The notes beneath the pieces are model-generated. The model ran no database searches, was not told where the DNA came from, and saw only the letters and a program-made list of their open reading frames with translations. A stretch of 64,000 nt of DNA from Escherichia coli (lineage in GTDB: Bacteria; Pseudomonadota; Gammaproteobacteria; Enterobacterales; Enterobacteriaceae). Location: the NCBI RefSeq assembly GCF_024502345.1, contig NZ_JALDNN010000001.1; one strand, 5' to 3'. A program made the position numbers and the translations under genes. Positions 1,089 through 52,961 of this stretch are shown piece after piece (the stretch's first letter is position 1; each line of letters starts with the position of its first letter).

Positions 1089-1844
1089 ATGATACTCACT
1101 CTCAGGGGCGTTGCGGTTTACTATGCAGATACGGATTTTTTCAGCTGGCGTCGCACGATGCTGTTGCGTTTTCAGAGGATGGAGGCCGCAGAAGAGGTCT
1201 ACCATGAAATAGAGCTTCAGGCTCAGCAGCTGGAGTACGATTACTATTCGTTATGTGTTCGCCACCCGGTACCATTCACGCGACCTAAAGTGGCTTTCTA
1301 CACCAATTACCCTGAGTCGTGGGTTAGTTATTATCAGGCAAAAAATTTTCTCGCAATTGATCCTGTGCTGAACCCTGAAAACTTTAGTCAGGGCCATTTA
1401 ATGTGGAATGATGACTTATTCAGCGAAGCACAGCCATTATGGGAAGCCGCGCACGCACATGGTTTACGCCGCGGTGTCACTCAGTATTTAATGCTGCCAA
1501 ATCGGGCGCTGGGCTTTTTGTCCTTTTCCTGTTGCAGCACGCGCAAAATACCCATTCTTAGTGATGAACTGCAATTAAAAATGCAGTTACTGGTGCGCGA
1601 AAGTCTGATGGCTCTGATGCGCTTAAATGATGAAATAGTGATGACGCCAGAGATGAATTTCAGCAAGCGCGAAAAAGAAATTCTGAAATGGACGGCGGAA
1701 GGGAAGACATCAGCAGAGATAGCGATGATTTTGTCAATCTCTGAGAATACGGTCAATTTCCATCAGAAAAACATGCAGAAAAAAATCAATGCACCAAATA
1801 AGACCCAGGTGGCCTGTTACGCGGCCGCTACTGGCTTAATTTGA
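1089..1844 (+). CDS. sdiA: LuxR-family quorum-sensing regulator SdiA; start codon uncertain (see findings)
   Basis: Long frame with autoinducer-binding N-domain and C-terminal LuxR HTH (SISENTVNFHQKNMQKKI); the expected ATG at 1123 is out of frame with the body. Confidence 0.8.
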   Translation: MILTLRGVAVYYADTDFFSWRRTMLLRFQRMEAAEEVYHEIELQAQQLEYDYYSLCVRHPVPFTRPKVAFYTNYPESWVSYYQAKNFLAIDPVLNPENFSQGHLMWNDDLFSEAQPLWEAAHAHGLRRGVTQYLMLPNRALGFLSFSCCSTRKIPILSDELQLKMQLLVRESLMALMRLNDEIVMTPEMNFSKREKEILKWTAEGKTSAEIAMILSISENTVNFHQKNMQKKINAPNKTQVACYAAATGLI

Positions 1845-1870
1845 TCGCTTTTCTTTCTGCGTGCCAGATG

Positions 1871-1910
1871 CAAAAACCGGCTGAAAGGCACGCTCTCAGC
1901 CGGTTTTATA
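1871..1910. terminator. Bidirectional rho-independent terminator between convergent sdiA and yecF
   Basis: Hairpin aaccggctga...tcagccggtt followed by T-run. Confidence 0.6.
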
Positions 1911-2135
1911 TTACTGACGGTAGGCTTGTTTAATTTGCTTAACCGTTTTGGAAAATACTGCAGCCTGGGTTTCGTCTTCGATCAGCGCAAGCTGTTTTTC
2001 CATCTTTAACATCACGCGGCCCGCGTCAGCTTGTCCCATCGCCTGCAGCATCAGCGTCAGCATCGCTTTCAGGCAGGAGACTTCATTTGCCAGTTCTTGA
2101 TTATTCTCGGCAGTAGAAAAATCAGGCGTACTCAT
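1911..2135 (-). CDS. yecF: Small conserved protein YecF (DUF2594)
   Basis: 74-aa ORF at the conserved position between sdiA and uvrY. Confidence 0.75.
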
Positions 2136-2462
2136 TTATTTTCCTCGTCATGTTGCAATGAAAATTTGCGGTGAAAAATGTTAAGGCGGCGGAGTATACC
2201 ATAAGCTTTGCTAAAAATAGCAGTGGTTGTTTTTTGAGCGTGATATCGGCAGTGCTATAAAATACGTTAATATAATGACCAATAAATATTTTTATCATGA
2301 ATGTTTTTTGCCCGTATTGTTCGGGTTAATTAATGTTACATATTCAGCGGGCTGATTTTCATTTTTGCTGAATAAAGTCAATTTTTGTCACATTTCATCG
2401 CCGGGCTTACTGTGAAACGATCCCGGAAGCCGTTGGTGACGGGCGTGACCATAACTGTGGAC

Positions 2463-2471
2463 AATCGAATT
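2463..2471. repeat. 9-bp target-site duplication (left) of IS903-family insertion
   Basis: aatcgaatt immediately outside the left IR; identical copy at 3529-3537. Confidence 0.85.
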
Positions 2472-3528
2472 GGCTTTGTTGAATAAATCAGATTTCGGGT
2501 AAGTCTCCCCCGTAGCGGGTTGTGTTTTCAGGCAATACGCACGCTTTCAGGCATACCTGCTTTCGTCATTTTGTTCAGCGCTCGTACCAGGGCCATAGCC
2601 TCTGCAACCTGACCATCGTAGTCACGCAGTGTCAGTGAACCCCCGAACAGCTGTTTTACCCGGTACATCGCCGTTTCCGCTATCGAGCGACGGTTGTAAT
2701 CTGTTGTCCATTTCCACCGCGCATTACTCCCGGTCATTCGCTGATTAGCCACTGCACGGTTACGGTCTGCATATTCACCGGGCCAGTAACCCGCACCTTT
2801 TCGGGGAGGGATAAGCGCGCTGATTTTCTTACGCCGCAGTTCATCGTGACATAGCCGGGTATCGTAAGCGCCATCGGCGGCGGCTGACCTGATTTTCCGG
2901 TGGGTTTGCCGGATTAACCCGGGGAAGGCCTCTGAGTCCGTAACGTTGTTCAGCGACAGGTCAGCGCAGATGATTTCATGTGTTTTACTGTCAACGGCGA
3001 GATGCAGCTTACGCCAGATACGGCGGCGTTCCTGGCCATGCTTTTTGACTTTCCACTCGCCTTCACCGAAGACCTTCAGCCCGGTGGAATCAATTACCAG
3101 GTGTGCGATTTCACCCCGGGTGGGCGTTTTGAAACTGACATTAACCGACTTTGCCCGCCTGCTGACACAGCTGTAATCCGGGCAGCGTAGCGGAACGTTC
3201 ATCAGAGAAAAAATGGAATCAATAAAGCCCTGCGCAGCGCGCAGGGTCAGCCTGAATACGCGTTTAATGACCAGCACAGTCGTGATGGCAAGGTCAGAAT
3301 AGCGCTGAGGTCTGCCTCGTGAAGAAGGTGTTGCTGACTCATACCAGGCCTGAATAGCTTCATCATCCAGCCAGAAAGTTATGGAGCCACGGTTGATGAG
3401 GGCTTTATTGTAGGTGGGCCAGTTGGTGATTTTGAACTTTTGCTTTGCCACGGAACGGTCTGCGTTGTCGGGAAGATACGTGATCTGATCCTTCAACTCA
3501 GCAAAAGTTCGATTTATTCAACAAAGCC
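2472..3528 (-). mobile_element. IS903-family (IS5 family) insertion sequence, 1057 bp
   Basis: Terminal inverted repeats ggctttgttgaataaatc (2472-2489) and its reverse complement (3511-3528); single DDE transposase ORF; flanked by perfect 9-bp direct repeats. Confidence 0.9.
2528..3496 (-). CDS. IS903-family DDE transposase
   Basis: 322-aa ORF filling the IS; N-terminal ...KITNWPTYNKALINRGS... typical of the IS903 group. Confidence 0.85.
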   Translation of the reverse strand: MKDQITYLPDNADRSVAKQKFKITNWPTYNKALINRGSITFWLDDEAIQAWYESATPSSRGRPQRYSDLAITTVLVIKRVFRLTLRAAQGFIDSIFSLMNVPLRCPDYSCVSRRAKSVNVSFKTPTRGEIAHLVIDSTGLKVFGEGEWKVKKHGQERRRIWRKLHLAVDSKTHEIICADLSLNNVTDSEAFPGLIRQTHRKIRSAAADGAYDTRLCHDELRRKKISALIPPRKGAGYWPGEYADRNRAVANQRMTGSNARWKWTTDYNRRSIAETAMYRVKQLFGGSLTLRDYDGQVAEAMALVRALNKMTKAGMPESVRIA

Positions 3529-3537
3529 AATCGAATT
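3529..3537. repeat. 9-bp target-site duplication (right) of IS903-family insertion
   Basis: aatcgaatt, identical to 2463-2471. Confidence 0.85.
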
Positions 3538-3659
3538 TACAAAAACGAGAGAAAAATCGAATACCCACCATTTTTAACGTTTCAAAGTTGCAATAAAAAC
3601 CGCTAATATACGAATGACTAACTATCAGTAGCGTTATCCCTATTTCTGGAGATATTCCT

Positions 3660-4316
3660 TTGATCAACGTTCTACTTGTTGATGACCACGAACTGGTGCG
3701 CGCAGGGATACGACGCATTCTGGAAGATATAAAGGGTATAAAAGTCGTCGGTGAGGCATCGTGCGGTGAAGACGCCGTTAAGTGGTGCCGGACAAATGCC
3801 GTTGACGTGGTGCTAATGGACATGAGTATGCCGGGCATTGGCGGTCTTGAGGCGACGCGTAAAATCGCGCGTTCCACAGCTGATGTCAAAATCATCATGC
3901 TTACCGTCCATACAGAAAACCCTTTACCAGCGAAAGTCATGCAGGCCGGTGCTGCGGGCTACCTCAGCAAAGGCGCGGCTCCGCAGGAAGTCGTGAGTGC
4001 GATTCGTTCTGTCTATTCAGGGCAGCGTTACATTGCTTCTGACATCGCTCAACAAATGGCGTTAAGCCAGATCGAACCAGAAAAAACAGAAAGCCCATTT
4101 GCCAGTTTGTCTGAACGTGAATTGCAGATTATGCTGATGATCACCAAGGGCCAGAAGGTCAATGAGATCTCAGAACAGCTCAATCTCAGTCCGAAAACGG
4201 TGAACAGCTACCGCTATCGTATGTTCAGTAAACTAAACATTCATGGCGATGTTGAGCTGACTCACCTGGCAATTCGCCATGGTCTGTGTAATGCGGAGAC
4301 ATTATCAAGTCAGTGA
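3660..4316 (+). CDS. uvrY: Response regulator UvrY (BarA/UvrY two-component system), TTG start
   Basis: 218 aa; receiver domain (LLVDDH...D54 region) plus C-terminal LuxR-type HTH; stop overlaps uvrC start. Confidence 0.9.
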
Positions 4317-6145
4317 GTGATCAGTTTGACGCAAAAGCGTTTTTAAAAACCGTAACCAGCCAGCCAGGCGTTTATCGCATGTACGATGCTGGTGGTACGG
4401 TTATCTATGTCGGCAAAGCGAAAGACCTGAAAAAACGGCTTTCCAGCTATTTCCGTAGCAACCTCGCTTCGCGCAAAACCGAAGCGCTGGTCGCCCAGAT
4501 CCAGCAAATTGATGTAACGGTTACTCACACAGAAACCGAAGCGCTGTTGCTGGAACACAACTACATCAAACTCTATCAGCCGCGTTACAACGTTTTGCTA
4601 CGCGATGATAAATCATATCCTTTTATCTTCCTGAGTGGTGATACCCACCCGCGTCTGGCGATGCATCGTGGTGCGAAGCATGCCAAAGGTGAATATTTCG
4701 GCCCGTTCCCGAATGGCTATGCCGTACGTGAAACACTGGCGCTACTGCAAAAGATATTCCCCATTCGCCAGTGCGAAAATAGTGTTTATCGCAATCGCTC
4801 GCGTCCGTGTCTGCAATATCAGATAGGGCGCTGTCTGGGACCGTGCGTTGAAGGACTGGTGAGTGAAGAAGAATACGCTCAGCAGGTCGAGTATGTGCGC
4901 CTGTTTTTGTCTGGCAAAGATGATCAGGTGCTTACGCAACTCATTAGCCGTATGGAAACTGCCAGCCAGAATCTGGAGTTTGAAGAAGCTGCACGTATTC
5001 GCGACCAAATTCAGGCGGTGCGACGCGTCACCGAAAAACAATTCGTTTCCAATACCGGCGACGACCTCGACGTTATTGGTGTGGCGTTCGATGCGGGCAT
5101 GGCTTGTGTCCACGTATTGTTCATTCGTCAGGGCAAAGTGCTCGGCAGCCGCAGCTATTTCCCGAAAGTGCCTGGCGGTACGGAACTGAGCGAGGTGGTA
5201 GAAACCTTCGTAGGCCAGTTCTATTTACAAGGCAGCCAGATGCGCACCTTACCGGGTGAGATCCTGCTCGATTTTAATCTTAGCGATAAAACGCTGCTCG
5301 CCGATTCCCTTTCAGAACTGGCGGGACGCAAGATTAATGTTCAAACCAAACCTCGCGGCGATAGGGCGCGTTATCTGAAACTCGCGCGCACCAATGCGGC
5401 GACGGCCTTAACCAGCAAACTTTCGCAGCAATCTACCGTTCACCAGCGACTGACCGCGCTTGCCAGCGTGTTGAAATTGCCGGAAGTGAAGCGGATGGAG
5501 TGCTTTGACATCAGCCATACCATGGGCGAACAAACCGTCGCTTCCTGTGTGGTGTTTGATGCTAACGGCCCGCTGCGTGCGGAGTATCGGCGCTATAACA
5601 TTACAGGCATCACGCCGGGCGATGATTATGCGGCGATGAATCAGGTGCTGCGTCGGCGTTATGGTAAAGCCATTGACGACAGTAAGATCCCGGATGTGAT
5701 CCTTATCGACGGCGGCAAAGGCCAGCTTGCGCAGGCGAAAAATGTCTTCGCCGAACTGGATGTCTCATGGGATAAAAATCATCCACTGCTACTTGGCGTT
5801 GCCAAAGGAGCAGATCGTAAGGCTGGGCTGGAAACACTGTTCTTTGAGCCGGAAGGTGAGGGATTCAGTTTGCCGCCAGATTCTCCCGCGCTGCATGTTA
5901 TCCAGCATATTCGCGATGAATCACACGATCACGCGATTGGCGGGCACCGTAAAAAACGGGCGAAGGTCAAAAATACCAGCTCCCTGGAAACCATTGAAGG
6001 CGTCGGGCCAAAACGTCGGCAAATGTTGTTGAAATATATGGGCGGTTTGCAAGGTTTACGTAACGCCAGCGTCGAGGAAATTGCAAAAGTGCCGGGTATT
6101 TCGCAAGGTCTGGCAGAAAAGATCTTCTGGTCGTTGAAACATTGA
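4313..6145 (+). CDS. uvrC: Excinuclease ABC subunit C, GTG start
   Basis: 610 aa; GIY-YIG N-terminal motif (GVYRMYD...YVGKA), C-terminal HhH; overlaps uvrY stop. Confidence 0.92.
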
Positions 6146-6901: not shown

Positions 6902-6977
<76 letters not shown>

Positions 6978-7031
6978 GTTTAAAAGACATCGGCCTCAAG
7001 CGGATGTCTGGCTGAAAGGCCTGAAGAATTT

Positions 7032-7105
7032 GGCGCGTTAACAAAGCGGTTATGTAGCGGATTGCAAATCCGTCTAGTCCGGTTCGACTCCGGAACGCGC
7101 CTCCA
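7032..7105 (+). tRNA. cysT: tRNA-Cys (anticodon GCA)
   Basis: 74 nt ending CCA; anticodon loop gattGCAaatc. Confidence 0.93.
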
Positions 7106-7117
7106 CTTTCTTCCCGA

Positions 7118-7204
7118 GCCCGGATGGTGGAATCGGTAGACACAAGGGATTTAAAATCCCTCGGCGTTCGCGCTGTGTGGGTTCAAGTCCCACTCCGGGT
7201 ACCA
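7118..7204 (+). tRNA. leuZ: tRNA-Leu (anticodon UAA), long variable arm; 3' half is the integration site of the element
   Basis: 87 nt ending CCA; anticodon loop gatttTAAaatcc; T-stem carries a compensatory U-A pair relative to the displaced copy at 34590-34645. Confidence 0.9.
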
Positions 7205-46707: not shown

Positions 46708-47486
46708 AACCTGTTCCTTATTCTGTGAACTTCAGGTGACATTAAAGCTTTACTCCTAATGGAGAAACGACGCAATCCCAACTCGGTCAAACAGGTAAAT
46801 ATTAGTCTGATTATTAGTAAAGACAATTAATCAATCACTCCCGGTGATCATATAATTTCAAATGTAATTATAAGAAAATAGTGTACTGATTCTCCGCATT
46901 AAACAAGTGGTTAATATATGTAAAACATTTCATCAACATTAAGTTGATTGTTGCCTTTCTTTGTATTTAATTAGTTTGTTGTGCGGTAAGTGTCTGTTTA
47001 AAAATAGCTTATCTGGTATTGCATGAAAGTGATTATTTATAGCAGATGATTATTTACGGTGAGTTATTTTGACTGTGCGCAACATCCCATTTCGATTATT
47101 CCTGTTTCATTTTTGCTTGCTAGCGTAGCGAAAAACTTTTTAACAGATTGAAATACACCCAAAACAAAAGTATGACTTATACATTTATGTTAAGTAACTG
47201 AGTGTTTTGTGTGATCTGCATCACACATTATTGAAAATCGCAGCCCCCCTCCGTTGTATGTGCGTGTAGTGACGAGTACAGTTGCGTCGATTTAGGAAAA
47301 ATCTTAGATAAGTGTAAAGGCCCATTTCTATTTGTAAGGACATATTAAACCAAAAAGGTGGTTCTGCTTATTGCAGCTTATCGCAACTATTCTAATGCTA
47401 ATTATTTTTTACCGGGGCTTCCCGGCGACATTACGGGGTGCGGTGAAACCGCATAAAAATAAAGTTGGTTATTCTGGGTGGGAATA
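46708..47486 (+). promoter_or_regulatory. flhDC promoter and long 5' UTR regulatory region
   Basis: About 780-bp AT-rich intergenic region upstream of flhD; known hub of transcriptional and sRNA control in E. coli; no IS insertion here. Confidence 0.6.
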
Positions 47487-47837
47487 ATGCATACCTCCGA
47501 GTTGCTGAAACACATTTATGACATCAACTTGTCATATTTACTACTTGCACAGCGTTTGATTGTTCAGGACAAAGCGTCCGCTATGTTTCGTCTCGGCATA
47601 AATGAAGAAATGGCGACAACGTTAGCGGCACTGACTCTTCCGCAAATGGTTAAGCTGGCAGAAACCAATCAACTGGTTTGTCACTTCCGTTTTGACAGCC
47701 ACCAGACGATTACTCAGTTGACGCAAGATTCCCGCGTTGACGATCTCCAGCAAATTCATACCGGCATCATGCTCTCAACACGCTTGCTGAATGATGTTAA
47801 TCAGCCTGAAGAAGCGCTGCGCAAGAAAAGGGCCTGA
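47487..47837 (+). CDS. flhD: Flagellar master regulator subunit FlhD
   Basis: 116 aa from [20 protein letters not shown]; in-frame ATG also at 47478. Confidence 0.9.
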
Positions 47838-47839
47838 TC

Positions 47840-48418
47840 ATGAGTGAAAAAAGCATTGTTCAGGAAGCGCGGGATATTCAGCTGGCAATGGAATTGATCA
47901 CCCTGGGCGCTCGTTTGCAGATGCTGGAAAGCGAAACACAGTTAAGTCGCGGACGCCTGATAAAACTTTATAAAGAACTGCGCGGAAGCCCACCGCCGAA
48001 AGGCATGCTGCCATTCTCAACCGACTGGTTTATGACCTGGGAACAAAACGTTCATGCTTCGATGTTCTGTAATGCATGGCAGTTTTTACTGAAAACCGGT
48101 TTGTGTAATGGCGTCGATGCGGTGATCAAAGCCTACCGTTTATACCTTGAACAGTGCCCACAAGCAGAAGAAGGACCACTGCTGGCATTAACCCGTGCCT
48201 GGACATTGGTGCGGTTTGTTGAAAGTGGATTACTGCAACTTTCCAGCTGCAACTGCTGCGGCGGCAATTTTATTACCCACGCTCACCAGCCTGTTGGCAG
48301 CTTTGCCTGCAGCTTATGTCAACCGCCATCCCGGGCAGTAAAAAGACGTAAACTTTCCCAGAATCCTGCCGATATTATCCCACAACTGCTGGATGAACAG
48401 AGAGTACAGGCTGTTTAA
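47840..48418 (+). CDS. flhC: Flagellar master regulator subunit FlhC
   Basis: 192 aa; zinc-binding Cys cluster CNCCGG...CSLCQ. Confidence 0.92.
48349..48375 (+). promoter_or_regulatory. Sigma28 (FliA) class III promoter for motAB-cheAW, inside the 3' end of flhC
   Basis: taaacttt-N11-gccgatat matches the consensus TAAAGTTT-N11-GCCGATAA. Confidence 0.6.
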
Positions 48419-52848: not shown

Positions 52849-52874
52849 TTCTCCCGATTTCCTCAATTGAAATG

Positions 52875-52904
52875 AACCCGATGATCTGCGCATCGGGTTT
52901 TTTA
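52875..52904 (+). terminator. Rho-independent terminator after cheW
   Basis: Hairpin cccgatg...catcggg followed by T6. Confidence 0.7.
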
Positions 52905-52934
52905 TTTCAATTTCGCGGCGGGTGGCATCAGCAA

Positions 52935-52961
52935 TAAAGTTTCCCCCCTCCTTGCCGATAA
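52935..52961 (+). promoter_or_regulatory. Sigma28 (FliA) class III promoter of the tar-tap-cheRBYZ operon
   Basis: Exact consensus taaagttt-N11-gccgataa about 30 nt upstream of tar. Confidence 0.75.

What the first reader, a model, noticed from the sequence alone, without database searches (positions are those of the whole stretch)
2463..3537. IS903-family insertion with intact 9-bp target duplication in the divergent yecF/uvrY promoter region
A 1057-bp element with the characteristic terminal repeat ggctttgttgaataaatc is flanked by a perfect direct repeat aatcgaatt (2463-2471 and 3529-3537), indicating a recent, unrearranged transposition. It lies about 120 bp upstream of the uvrY start and upstream of divergently transcribed yecF. 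It could disrupt or replace the native uvrY promoter, with possible effects on the BarA/UvrY-Csr pathway.
Basis: partly seen in the sequence, partly recalled or inferred. Interest (0 to 1): 0.55.

Follow-up and report, generated by a model that had tools for sequence, protein, structure and literature searches.

The report
Ordinary IS903B insertion upstream of uvrY
A fully intact copy of the well-known mobile element IS903B has jumped into the DNA between yecU/yecF and uvrY of an E. coli strain; it lies upstream of the mapped uvrY promoter rather than in it, so it is an ordinary strain-specific insertion that may loosen uvrY regulation but probably does not switch uvrY off.

Summary
Window 2472-3528 is a 1057-bp element with perfect 18-bp inverted ends. 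It is flanked by a perfect 9-bp duplication, AATCGAATT. Deleting the element and one repeat restores the normal yecU-uvrY spacer without a gap. The element is 100% identical to many E. coli copies annotated as IS903B and carries an intact 307-aa DDE transposase.

No genome among 5,426 complete E. coli genomes has it at this site, so the insertion is recent or lineage-specific.

The published K-12 uvrY transcription start maps to window 3616, and the 51-mer around it is identical here. Its -35 (3581-3586) and -10 (3604-3609) hexamers lie 52 bp or more downstream of the element. The core promoter is therefore intact, and I found no outward or hybrid promoter.

What the element does is move the upstream regulatory DNA 1,066 bp away. 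That DNA holds the NhaR-binding region, predicted H-NS sites and upstream starts. A lab IS5 insertion at -260 abolished NhaR control of uvrY, and its reporter mimic was 1.8-fold more active. The likeliest effect here is similar: partial uncoupling or mild derepression. This was not tested.

yecF has its own promoter 287 bp away.

Novelty is low.

The parts
2463..2471 (.). Left copy of the 9-bp target-site duplication, AATCGAATT
   Evidence: The sequence is single-copy in the reconstructed empty site.
2472..3528 (-). IS903B insertion sequence (IS5 family, IS903 group), 1057 bp, complete
   Evidence: It is 100% identical over 1057/1057 bp to many E. coli copies annotated 'IS5-like element IS903B family transposase' (e.g. 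XH990 with WP_000654812.1). IS903B-like sequence occurs in 1993 of 5426 complete genomes.
2472..2489 (+). Terminal inverted repeat at the transposase-distal end (IRR), GGCTTTGTTGAATAAATC
   Evidence: 0 mismatches.
3511..3528 (-). Terminal inverted repeat at the transposase-proximal end (IRL). This is the end that faces uvrY.
   Evidence: 0 mismatches; inverted pair I1.
2528..3451 (-). Transposase gene, uninterrupted: 307 aa from GTG at 3451. The annotation pipeline calls the 322-aa form starting at TTG 3496. It is transcribed away from uvrY and towards yecU/yecF.
   Evidence: ORF. NCBIfam NF033579 'IS5 family transposase', 357.6 bits against a cut-off of 140, full length. Pfam DDE_Tnp_1_5 and DDE_Tnp_1.
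3529..3537 (.). Right copy of the 9-bp target-site duplication, AATCGAATT
3538..3580 (+). Native DNA retained between the insertion and the uvrY -35 hexamer. It is A/T-rich and includes the position (-102 from the start codon) where Krol 2018 predicted the proximal SdiA site.
   Evidence: Sequence. The site position is from PMC6307784; it is a prediction and was not tested here.
3581..3616 (+). uvrY core promoter and transcription start: -35 TTCAAA 3581-3586, 17-nt spacer, -10 TAATAT 3604-3609, start G at 3616. It is intact.
   Evidence: K-12 start at 1993427(-), 5'UTR 44 nt, 21 reads (Kim et al. 2012). The 51-mer is identical at window 3566-3616. It is the best-scoring + strand promoter candidate between the inside of the element and uvrY. 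K. pneumoniae has its start 45 nt upstream of the corrected uvrY start (file 8).
3660..4316 (+). uvrY, response regulator of the BarA/UvrY system; 218 aa, intact
   Evidence: ORF. NCBIfam NF007018, 450.9 bits against a cut-off of 280.
2299..2471 (.). Upstream part of the native yecU-uvrY spacer (173 of 295 bp), now 1,066 bp further from uvrY. Together with DNA further left it carries the region that binds NhaR, predicted H-NS sites and upstream + strand promoter candidates.
   Evidence: Krol's primers map at 2335 (-260), 2236 (-358) and 2438-2457. NhaR binding and reporter data are from PMC6307784. + strand candidates TTGTCA 2385 / TACTGT 2408 and TTGCCC 2308 / TAATGT 2331.
2122..2298 (-). yecU, a small protein gene (58 aa). 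It is the gene nearest the left end of the element (174 bp away) and is co-oriented with the transposase.
   Evidence: Annotated as yecU in other E. coli genomes; ORF.
1911..2135 (-). yecF (DUF2594). Its own start is at window 2185, with an extended -10 (TGGTATACT) inside yecU.
   Evidence: NCBIfam NF007904. Start at 1993792(+) in K-12, mapped to window 2185.

Best explanation
An autonomous, fully intact IS903B copy made a simple insertion into the yecU-uvrY spacer of an E. coli chromosome. It is 1057 bp long, with 18-bp inverted repeats and one DDE transposase gene, and it duplicated the 9-bp target AATCGAATT. The event is recent or lineage-restricted.

The element sits at -88 relative to the mapped uvrY transcription start. 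It leaves the core promoter, 43 bp of native DNA upstream of the -35 hexamer, the 44-nt leader and the gene untouched. It brings no promoter pointing at uvrY.

Its effect is therefore positional. It pushes the upstream regulatory module 1,066 bp away and places about 1 kb of less A/T-rich DNA, transcribed in the opposite direction, in between. That module comprises the NhaR-binding region, most predicted H-NS sites, the distal predicted SdiA site and the upstream rightward transcription starts.

Expected outcome (inferred, not shown): uvrY is still transcribed from its own promoter but is uncoupled from NhaR and from upstream H-NS control. Expression would probably be unchanged to modestly higher, with a corresponding small shift in csrB/csrC output.

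uvrC is buffered by its own strong internal start at window 4143. yecF keeps its own promoter. yecU may lose a native promoter or receive weak read-through from the transposase gene.
For: Shown here:
- Element anatomy and duplication.
- Gapless empty-site reconstruction.
- 100% identity to annotated IS903B copies.
- Intact IS5-family DDE transposase.
- No genome among 5,426 complete E. coli genomes has an insertion at this site. The one genome that covers the whole query has its IS903B inside sdiA instead. The closest flank match, at 99.7%, has the empty site.
- The K-12 uvrY start-site 51-mer is identical at 3566-3616, so the promoter lies downstream of the element.
- With a rough sigma-70 matrix, that mapped promoter is the top candidate on the + strand. 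Nothing at the end of the element or at the junction scores more than half as well. The consensus scan finds no + strand site there either.
- uvrC has its own start with 201 reads at window 4143.

From the literature (Krol 2018, PMC6307784):
- An IS5 at -260 in MG1655 stocks abolished the effect of nhaR on the Csr system.
- Reporter fragments truncated to -260 or -196 were about 1.8-2-fold more active than longer ones.
- NhaR bound the -358 fragment but not the -196 fragment.
- hns deletion raised activity 2.4-3.9-fold.

Inference: the insertion here, at -131/-122 from the start codon, removes at least everything those truncations removed.
Against: - No expression data exist for this strain. 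The start site was mapped in K-12, not here, and rests on 21 reads in one dataset.
- No reporter construct has been truncated as far as -131. An element needed for basal activity between -196 and -131 cannot be excluded.
- The position of Krol's 'H-NS5' site relative to the insertion could not be read, because it is given only in a figure.
- The 1980s promoters P2a/P2b (Sharma et al. 1986) could not be placed because the paper was not available. One of them may lie left of the insertion.
Confidence: 0.6

Rival explanations
1. Neutral passenger. The insertion has no measurable effect on uvrY or on the Csr pathway under ordinary conditions. The core promoter and proximal DNA are sufficient, and the upstream sites matter only in niche conditions.
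For: At 37 C in LB the -770, -634 and -358 reporter fragments gave the same activity in wild type, nhaR and sdiA mutants (PMC6307784). The core promoter is intact. The insertion is unique among 5,426 genomes, which gives no sign of selection or spread.
Against: Shorter fragments (-260, -196) were reproducibly 1.8-2-fold more active, and the IS5 allele changed csrB/csrC behaviour.
Confidence: 0.25
2. Loss of function. The insertion cripples uvrY transcription, for example by removing an upstream promoter that contributes most of the transcripts, or an activator site between -196 and -131.
For: A strong + strand promoter candidate, TTGTCA-17-TACTGT at 2385-2413, and further upstream starts reported by primer extension are now cut off from uvrY. 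Natural alleles that do separate uvrY from its promoter exist, such as the IS1 in the 5'UTR of FDAARGOS_1291. About 50 of 5,426 genomes lack the upstream region altogether.
Against: The only start mapped genome-wide lies downstream of the insertion. The -196 fragment lacks the -35 of the 2385 candidate, yet it was the most active reporter (mapping).
Confidence: 0.1
3. Promoter donation. The uvrY-proximal end of IS903B supplies an outward or hybrid promoter that drives uvrY.
For: Outward and hybrid promoters are known for several insertion-sequence families (general knowledge).
Against: No promoter-like match faces uvrY at 3440-3560. The best junction candidates score 4-5, against 9.8 for the native promoter, and the top junction candidate also exists in the native arrangement because it uses the duplicated target. 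The transposase is transcribed in the opposite direction.
Confidence: 0.03
4. Assembly artefact. A repeat was collapsed or misplaced into this locus.
For: IS903B is multi-copy in many E. coli genomes, up to 47 places per genome. The neighbouring sdiA carries a unique 1-bp deletion that could be a sequencing error.
Against: A perfect 9-bp duplication at exactly the two ends and a gapless empty-site reconstruction are the signature of real transposition, not of misassembly.
Confidence: 0.02

Closest known systems
IS903B / IS903 (IS5 family, IS903 group; the flanking element of Tn903)
   Same: It has the same length (1057 bp), the same perfect 18-bp inverted repeats GGCTTTGTTGAATAAATC, a 9-bp target duplication and a single 307-aa DDE transposase. 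It is 100% identical in nucleotide sequence to many chromosomal and plasmid copies labelled IS903B in RefSeq.
   Different: The element itself does not differ. Only its location is new: it is not at this site in any of 5,426 complete E. coli genomes.
[quoted passage not shown]
   Same: It is also an IS5-family element, in the same spacer and upstream of the uvrY core promoter, and it also separates uvrY from the upstream NhaR/H-NS region. It was reported to abolish nhaR-dependent regulation of uvrY and csrB/csrC; a reporter truncated at -260 to imitate it was 1.8-fold more active.
   Different: This is a different element (IS903B, 1057 bp, 9-bp duplication, versus IS5 of about 1.2 kb). It lies about 130 bp closer to uvrY (-131/-122 versus -260; window 2463-2471 versus about 2335), so it also removes the predicted NhaR5/6 sites and possibly H-NS5. 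Its effect is untested.
IS1 insertion in the uvrY 5' untranslated region of E. coli FDAARGOS_1291 (NZ_CP069980.1), found here
   Same: It is a natural insertion-sequence polymorphism in the same 295-bp spacer, also with a 9-bp duplication.
   Different: It lies downstream of the transcription start, at window-equivalent 3625-3633 (+10 to +18). It therefore truly separates uvrY from its promoter, which the IS903B copy does not.
Insertion-sequence activation of H-NS-silenced promoters (IS1/IS5 upstream of bglGFB; IS1/IS5 upstream of flhDC)
   Same: The proposed logic is the same: an element inserted upstream of an intact core promoter relieves repression that depends on upstream A/T-rich DNA. 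The bgl case is described in PMC8836124 as listed; the flhDC case is from my own knowledge.
   Different: H-NS repression of uvrY is modest, at 2.4-3.9-fold, not full silencing. No phenotype has been shown here.

Membership tests
IS903 group of the IS5 family (IS903B) | Element of about 1057 bp bounded by 18-bp perfect terminal inverted repeats, GGCTTTGTTGAATAAATC | tested here: met
   Repeats at 2472-2489 and 3511-3528, 0 mismatches, total length 1057 bp. The reference repeat sequence is from my own knowledge of IS903. It is corroborated by 100% identity to annotated IS903B copies.
IS903 group of the IS5 family (IS903B) | 9-bp direct target-site duplication | tested here: met
   AATCGAATT at 2463-2471 and 3529-3537. 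It is single-copy in the empty-site reconstruction.
IS903 group of the IS5 family (IS903B) | Single uninterrupted ORF encoding an IS5-family DDE transposase | tested here: met
   307/322-aa ORF. NF033579, 357.6 bits against a cut-off of 140. PF13737 and PF01609. The individual D, D and E catalytic residues were not inspected.
IS903 group of the IS5 family (IS903B) | Near-identity to the named reference element (isoform-level identity) | tested here: met
   1057/1057 identical to copies that NCBI's annotation pipeline names 'IS5-like element IS903B family transposase'. A direct comparison with the ISfinder reference entry was not possible with these tools.
Promoter-disrupting or promoter-replacing insertion | The insertion lies within the core promoter (-35 to +1) or between the promoter and the gene | tested here: not met
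   The element ends at -88 and the duplication at -79, relative to the start mapped in K-12 and conserved here.
Promoter-disrupting or promoter-replacing insertion | The element supplies an outward-facing or hybrid promoter towards the gene | tested here: not met
   No consensus-like site was found. This is a sequence-only test, so a weak non-canonical promoter cannot be excluded.
Regulatory-uncoupling insertion (like IS5 at -260 upstream of uvrY) | The insertion lies upstream of the core promoter and downstream of experimentally supported regulator-binding DNA | tested here: met
   The NhaR-binding -358 fragment starts at window 2236 and the non-binding -196 fragment at about 2398. The insertion is at 2463-2471.
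Regulatory-uncoupling insertion (like IS5 at -260 upstream of uvrY) | Changed expression or lost regulator dependence of uvrY, csrB and csrC | not testable with these tools
   This requires reporter, RNA or protein measurements in this strain.

The most novel reading that the evidence does not exclude
The insertion may be one of two hits in this strain on the inputs to uvrY. The other is a strain-specific 1-bp deletion that frameshifts sdiA at codon 3; sdiA encodes the reported activator of uvrY. Other isolates carry IS5, IS1 and IS903B hits in the same sdiA-uvrY neighbourhood. Together these might reflect recurrent selection, mediated by insertion sequences, to uncouple BarA/UvrY-Csr signalling from SdiA, NhaR and H-NS control in natural E. 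coli.
Probability: 0.12. Interest if true: 0.4.

Novelty: already known. Interest (0 to 1): 0.15.

Why it matters
UvrY is the response regulator that drives the csrB and csrC small RNAs, and so sets the activity of the global regulator CsrA (metabolism, motility, biofilm, virulence). A strain in which uvrY is cut off from its upstream control region could respond differently to alkaline, low-temperature or quorum-type signals. That would matter when phenotypes are compared between isolates.

It is also a reminder that insertions 'in a promoter region' need a mapped transcription start before they are called disruptive. Beyond that, this is a routine insertion-sequence polymorphism: a known element, identical to hundreds of other copies, at a private site.

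Tried and rejected
- Outward or hybrid promoter from the element towards uvrY: none found, either by the consensus scan or by my rough sigma-70 matrix. Rejected.
- Same insertion in other genomes: none among 5,426 complete E. coli genomes. The only IS903B in this neighbourhood is inside sdiA of a Danish poultry isolate.
- Literature link between uvrY and IS903: no paper holds both terms.
- Classical promoter papers and leader-mapping papers were not held, so P2a/P2b and the experimentally defined leader could not be placed independently. These were Sharma 1986 (PMC339659), Thomason 2015 (PMC4288677), Vakulskas 2014 (PMC4048959) and Camacho 2015 (PMC4325108).
- Second start-site dataset: the supplements held for the Cappable-seq paper contain no coordinates near uvrY, and the Conway 2014 supplements are not held. 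Start-site support rests on one dataset, plus the conserved Klebsiella start.
- Enumerating all genomes with an interrupted spacer: the search tool lists only top or evenly spaced rows, so I obtained counts only. 13 genomes are split and about 50 lack the region. I could list neither the elements nor their positions, apart from the IS1 case.
- Literature search for yecU returned only unrelated matches.
- I did not run the large metagenome or genome scan for the junction. It would not change the verdict.

Full report
**What is there**

Reading window 1800-4500 shows the sequence GGCTTTGTTGAATAAATC at 2472-2489. Its exact reverse complement is at 3511-3528. These are the only two matches in the 64-kb window, even with 3 mismatches allowed, against 0.09 expected by chance.

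The 1057 bp between them contain one long ORF on the minus strand, 3496..2528. It encodes 322 aa from a TTG start, or 307 aa from the GTG at 3451.

Directly outside the two ends lies AATCGAATT, at 2463-2471 and 3529-3537. The repeat finder extends this to 10 nt. That is only because the terminal C of the element happens to equal base 2462.

I deleted 2472-3537 in silico. The result aligns to the uninterrupted sdiA-yecF-yecU-uvrY region of another E. coli chromosome over 1435 bp, with no gap at the junction. The clean duplication together with the gapless empty site is the signature of a genuine simple transposition. It does not fit a recombination product or a misassembly.

**What the element is**

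The 1057 bp are 100% identical to many chromosomal and plasmid copies in complete E. coli genomes, all annotated 'IS5-like element IS903B family transposase'. One example is WP_000654812.1 in strain XH990. IS903B-like sequence is present in 1993 of 5426 genomes, with up to 47 places per genome.

The 307-aa protein matches NCBIfam NF033579 (IS5 family transposase) at 357.6 bits, against a cut-off of 140. It also matches Pfam DDE_Tnp_1_5 and DDE_Tnp_1.

All structural criteria for the IS903 group are met: length, 18-bp inverted repeats, 9-bp duplication and a single DDE transposase. It is a known element, not a new one.

**Where it sits**

The gene order in the window is:
- tcyN, 141-893
- sdiA, about 1123-1844
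- yecF, 1911-2135, minus strand
- yecU, 2122-2298, minus strand
- the insertion, 2472-3528
- uvrY, 3660-4316
- uvrC, 4313-6145
- pgsA, followed by three tRNA genes

uvrY is intact (NF007018, 450.9 bits). The native yecU-uvrY spacer is 295 bp. The insertion splits it into 173 bp on the left and 122 bp on the right.

The transposase is transcribed leftwards, away from uvrY and in the same direction as yecU and yecF.

**How common this allele is**

A query spanning both junctions (window 2250-3750) found no genome among 5,426 with the element at this site. The one genome that covered the whole query has its IS903B inside sdiA. The closest match to the flanks, NZ_OY754834.1 at 99.3-99.7%, has the empty site. 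Several genomes have a spacer 100% identical to the reconstructed empty site.

Combined with perfect repeats, an intact ORF and 100% identity to other copies, this points to a recent or lineage-private insertion.

**Does it hit the uvrY promoter?**

The genome-wide start-site map of E. coli K-12 by Kim et al. 2012 (PMC3415461, supplementary file 2) lists one uvrY start. It is at 1993427 on the minus strand, with a 44-nt 5'UTR and 21 reads, and it comes with its upstream 50 nt. That 51-mer is identical to window 3566-3616.

The start is therefore at 3616. The -10 hexamer is TAATAT at 3604-3609, and the -35 hexamer is TTCAAA at 3581-3586, with a 17-nt spacer.

The same study records the Klebsiella pneumoniae uvrY start 45 nt upstream of the corrected start codon. 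The position is thus conserved across genera.

The element ends at -88 and the duplication at -79. Fifty-two base pairs separate the element from the -35 hexamer. The core promoter, the leader and the gene are untouched.

With a rough sigma-70 matrix, the mapped promoter is the best + strand candidate anywhere between the interior of the element and uvrY (score 9.8). Nothing at the end of the element or at the junction exceeds about 4.9. The best junction candidate uses the duplicated target, so it also exists in the native arrangement. The built-in consensus scan likewise finds no + strand site there.

I therefore reject both 'disrupts the promoter' and 'replaces the promoter'.

**What it probably does instead**

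Krol 2018 (PMC6307784) studied this exact region in K-12. Her primers map to the window exactly as her coordinates predict: the -260 primer at 2335, -358 at 2236, -634 at 1960 and -9 at 3632-3648. Her main findings were:
- Reporter fragments truncated to -260 or -196 were about 1.8-2-fold more active than fragments reaching -358 to -770.
- NhaR shifted the -358 fragment but not the -196 fragment.
- Deleting hns raised activity 2.4-3.9-fold.
- An NhaR-dependent extension product started at -542.

The IS903B insertion at -131/-122 removes from uvrY's vicinity everything those truncations removed, and a further 65 bp. It also places about 1 kb of less A/T-rich DNA between the two halves of the spacer. 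The element is 47% A+T, against 58% and 66% for the two halves. That DNA is transcribed in the opposite direction.

Two + strand promoter candidates in the left half are also cut off: TTGTCA-17-TACTGT at 2385-2413 and TTGCCC-17-TAATGT at 2308-2336.

By inference, uvrY should still be expressed from its own promoter but should lose NhaR and upstream H-NS control, with unchanged to modestly raised expression. This is an analogy, not a measurement. No construct ending at -131 has been tested. The exact position of the predicted 'H-NS5' site is given only in a figure I could not read. The proximal predicted SdiA site (-102) lies to the right of the insertion and is retained.

**Neighbouring genes**

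uvrC has its own strong start inside uvrY, at K-12 1992900 with 201 reads, which maps to window 4143. It is therefore buffered.

yecF has its own start at window 2185, with an extended -10 inside yecU, 287 bp from the element.

yecU is the gene actually facing the element. Its promoter is unmapped. One computational candidate on the minus strand has its -35 at 3542-3537 and its -10 at 2453-2448. It spans the target site and would be split by the insertion, but no start site supports it. Weak read-through from the transposase gene into yecU is possible.

**Context from other genomes**

The spacer is occasionally hit in nature. With a 340-nt empty-site query, 13 of 5,375 matching genomes show the region in two separate places, and 51 genomes lack it. 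With a 700-nt query, 49 genomes have less than 80% in one piece.

One resolved case is FDAARGOS_1291. It carries an IS1 with a 9-bp duplication at window-equivalent 3625-3633, inside the uvrY 5'UTR, so it truly separates uvrY from its promoter.

Insertions here are therefore recurrent but rare, and the present one is among the milder in position.

**Verdict**

This is a known element at a private site, upstream of an intact promoter. It is biologically plausible as a modest regulatory variant of the BarA/UvrY-Csr input, but it is ordinary as a genomic feature. Interest is low (0.15) and the novelty category is 'already known'.

The most novel reading still open is that the insertion acts together with the strain-specific sdiA frameshift noticed nearby, as part of recurrent selection on uvrY inputs. 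I give that about a 12% probability.

Noticed in passing
window 1123-1130 (sdiA start; gene about 1123-1844, + strand): sdiA has a 1-bp deletion right after ATGCAG, compared with the closest relative (ATGCAG[G]ATACGG). This puts the canonical start codon out of frame with the rest of the gene. None of 5,373 E. coli genomes has the exact 81-mer 1100-1180; all show the 1-nt gap. An in-frame ATG at 1089 lies in the 5'UTR (the sdiA start maps to 1062) but has no obvious ribosome-binding site. There are also four amino-acid changes relative to the relative (A66S, R111H, R137C, E142K). SdiA is the reported activator of uvrY (PMC7652899). The deletion could be real pseudogenisation or a sequencing error.
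   Followed up: partly
L003 (NZ_CP069980.1, E. coli FDAARGOS_1291) 747-1514; window-equivalent 3625-3633: This genome has an IS1 with a 9-bp duplication inside the uvrY 5' untranslated region (+10 to +18 from the mapped start). It lies 27 bp upstream of the start codon and separates uvrY from its promoter in a human isolate.
   Followed up: yes
L001 (NZ_CP160108.1, poultry salpingitis isolate) 2501-3548: This genome has an IS903B copy inserted inside sdiA, in the same orientation as the window's copy. It is the only other IS903B in this neighbourhood among 5,426 genomes.
   Followed up: partly
E. coli complete-genome collection, region equivalent to window 2271-2471 plus 3538-3677: About 50 genomes lack the uvrY upstream region entirely, or keep only part of uvrY (for example H130 and H190), and 13 have it split by a large insertion. 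This suggests recurrent natural loss or rearrangement of uvrY regulation. The individual cases could not be listed with the tool.
   Followed up: partly
window 2381-2452, - strand (equivalent to L002 3909-3980): In K-12-like genomes, NCBI's annotation pipeline annotates a 72-nt pseudogene fragment called 'transcriptional regulator' (missing its C-terminus) in the yecU-uvrY spacer, immediately left of the insertion site. Its origin is unknown.
   Followed up: no
window 2364-2387 versus 2475-2487 and 3502-3525: A native sequence 108 bp left of the insertion, TTTGCTGAATAAAGTC, resembles the core of the element's terminal repeat, TTTGTTGAATAAATC (12/13 as a direct repeat; 79% as a 24-nt inverted match). 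This may be chance, since many 9-15-nt repeats were reported in the same run.
   Followed up: no
window 3529-3536 and 3554-3561: The target sequence AATCGAAT recurs 25 bp downstream in the native DNA (AATCGAATttac...AATCGAATaccc). The insertion therefore landed in one half of a short native direct repeat upstream of the uvrY -35 hexamer. Whether this corresponds to the predicted H-NS5 or NhaR motif is unknown.
   Followed up: no
window about 7200-32000: A genomic island follows the Gly/Cys/Leu tRNA genes (6902-7201). It carries a site-specific integrase, a type I restriction-modification system, a DUF262 protein and a B-family DNA polymerase-like protein, among others. Similar islands are present in 188 genomes at 80% coverage or more, including ETEC H10407.
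   Followed up: partly
window 46708-47477: The uspC-flhD spacer is a classic insertion-sequence hot spot that controls motility. Here it is 770 bp and carries no insertion. flhDC (47478-48418) and the mot/che/tar/tap genes follow, in the usual order. The C0465 sRNA is at 52868-52945 on the - strand.
   Followed up: partly
window 3228-3246, - strand: A G+C-rich hairpin (8 pairs, 7 of them G-C) followed by CTTTATTGAT lies inside the transposase coding region, on the coding strand. It is a possible internal attenuator, or simply chance.
   Followed up: no
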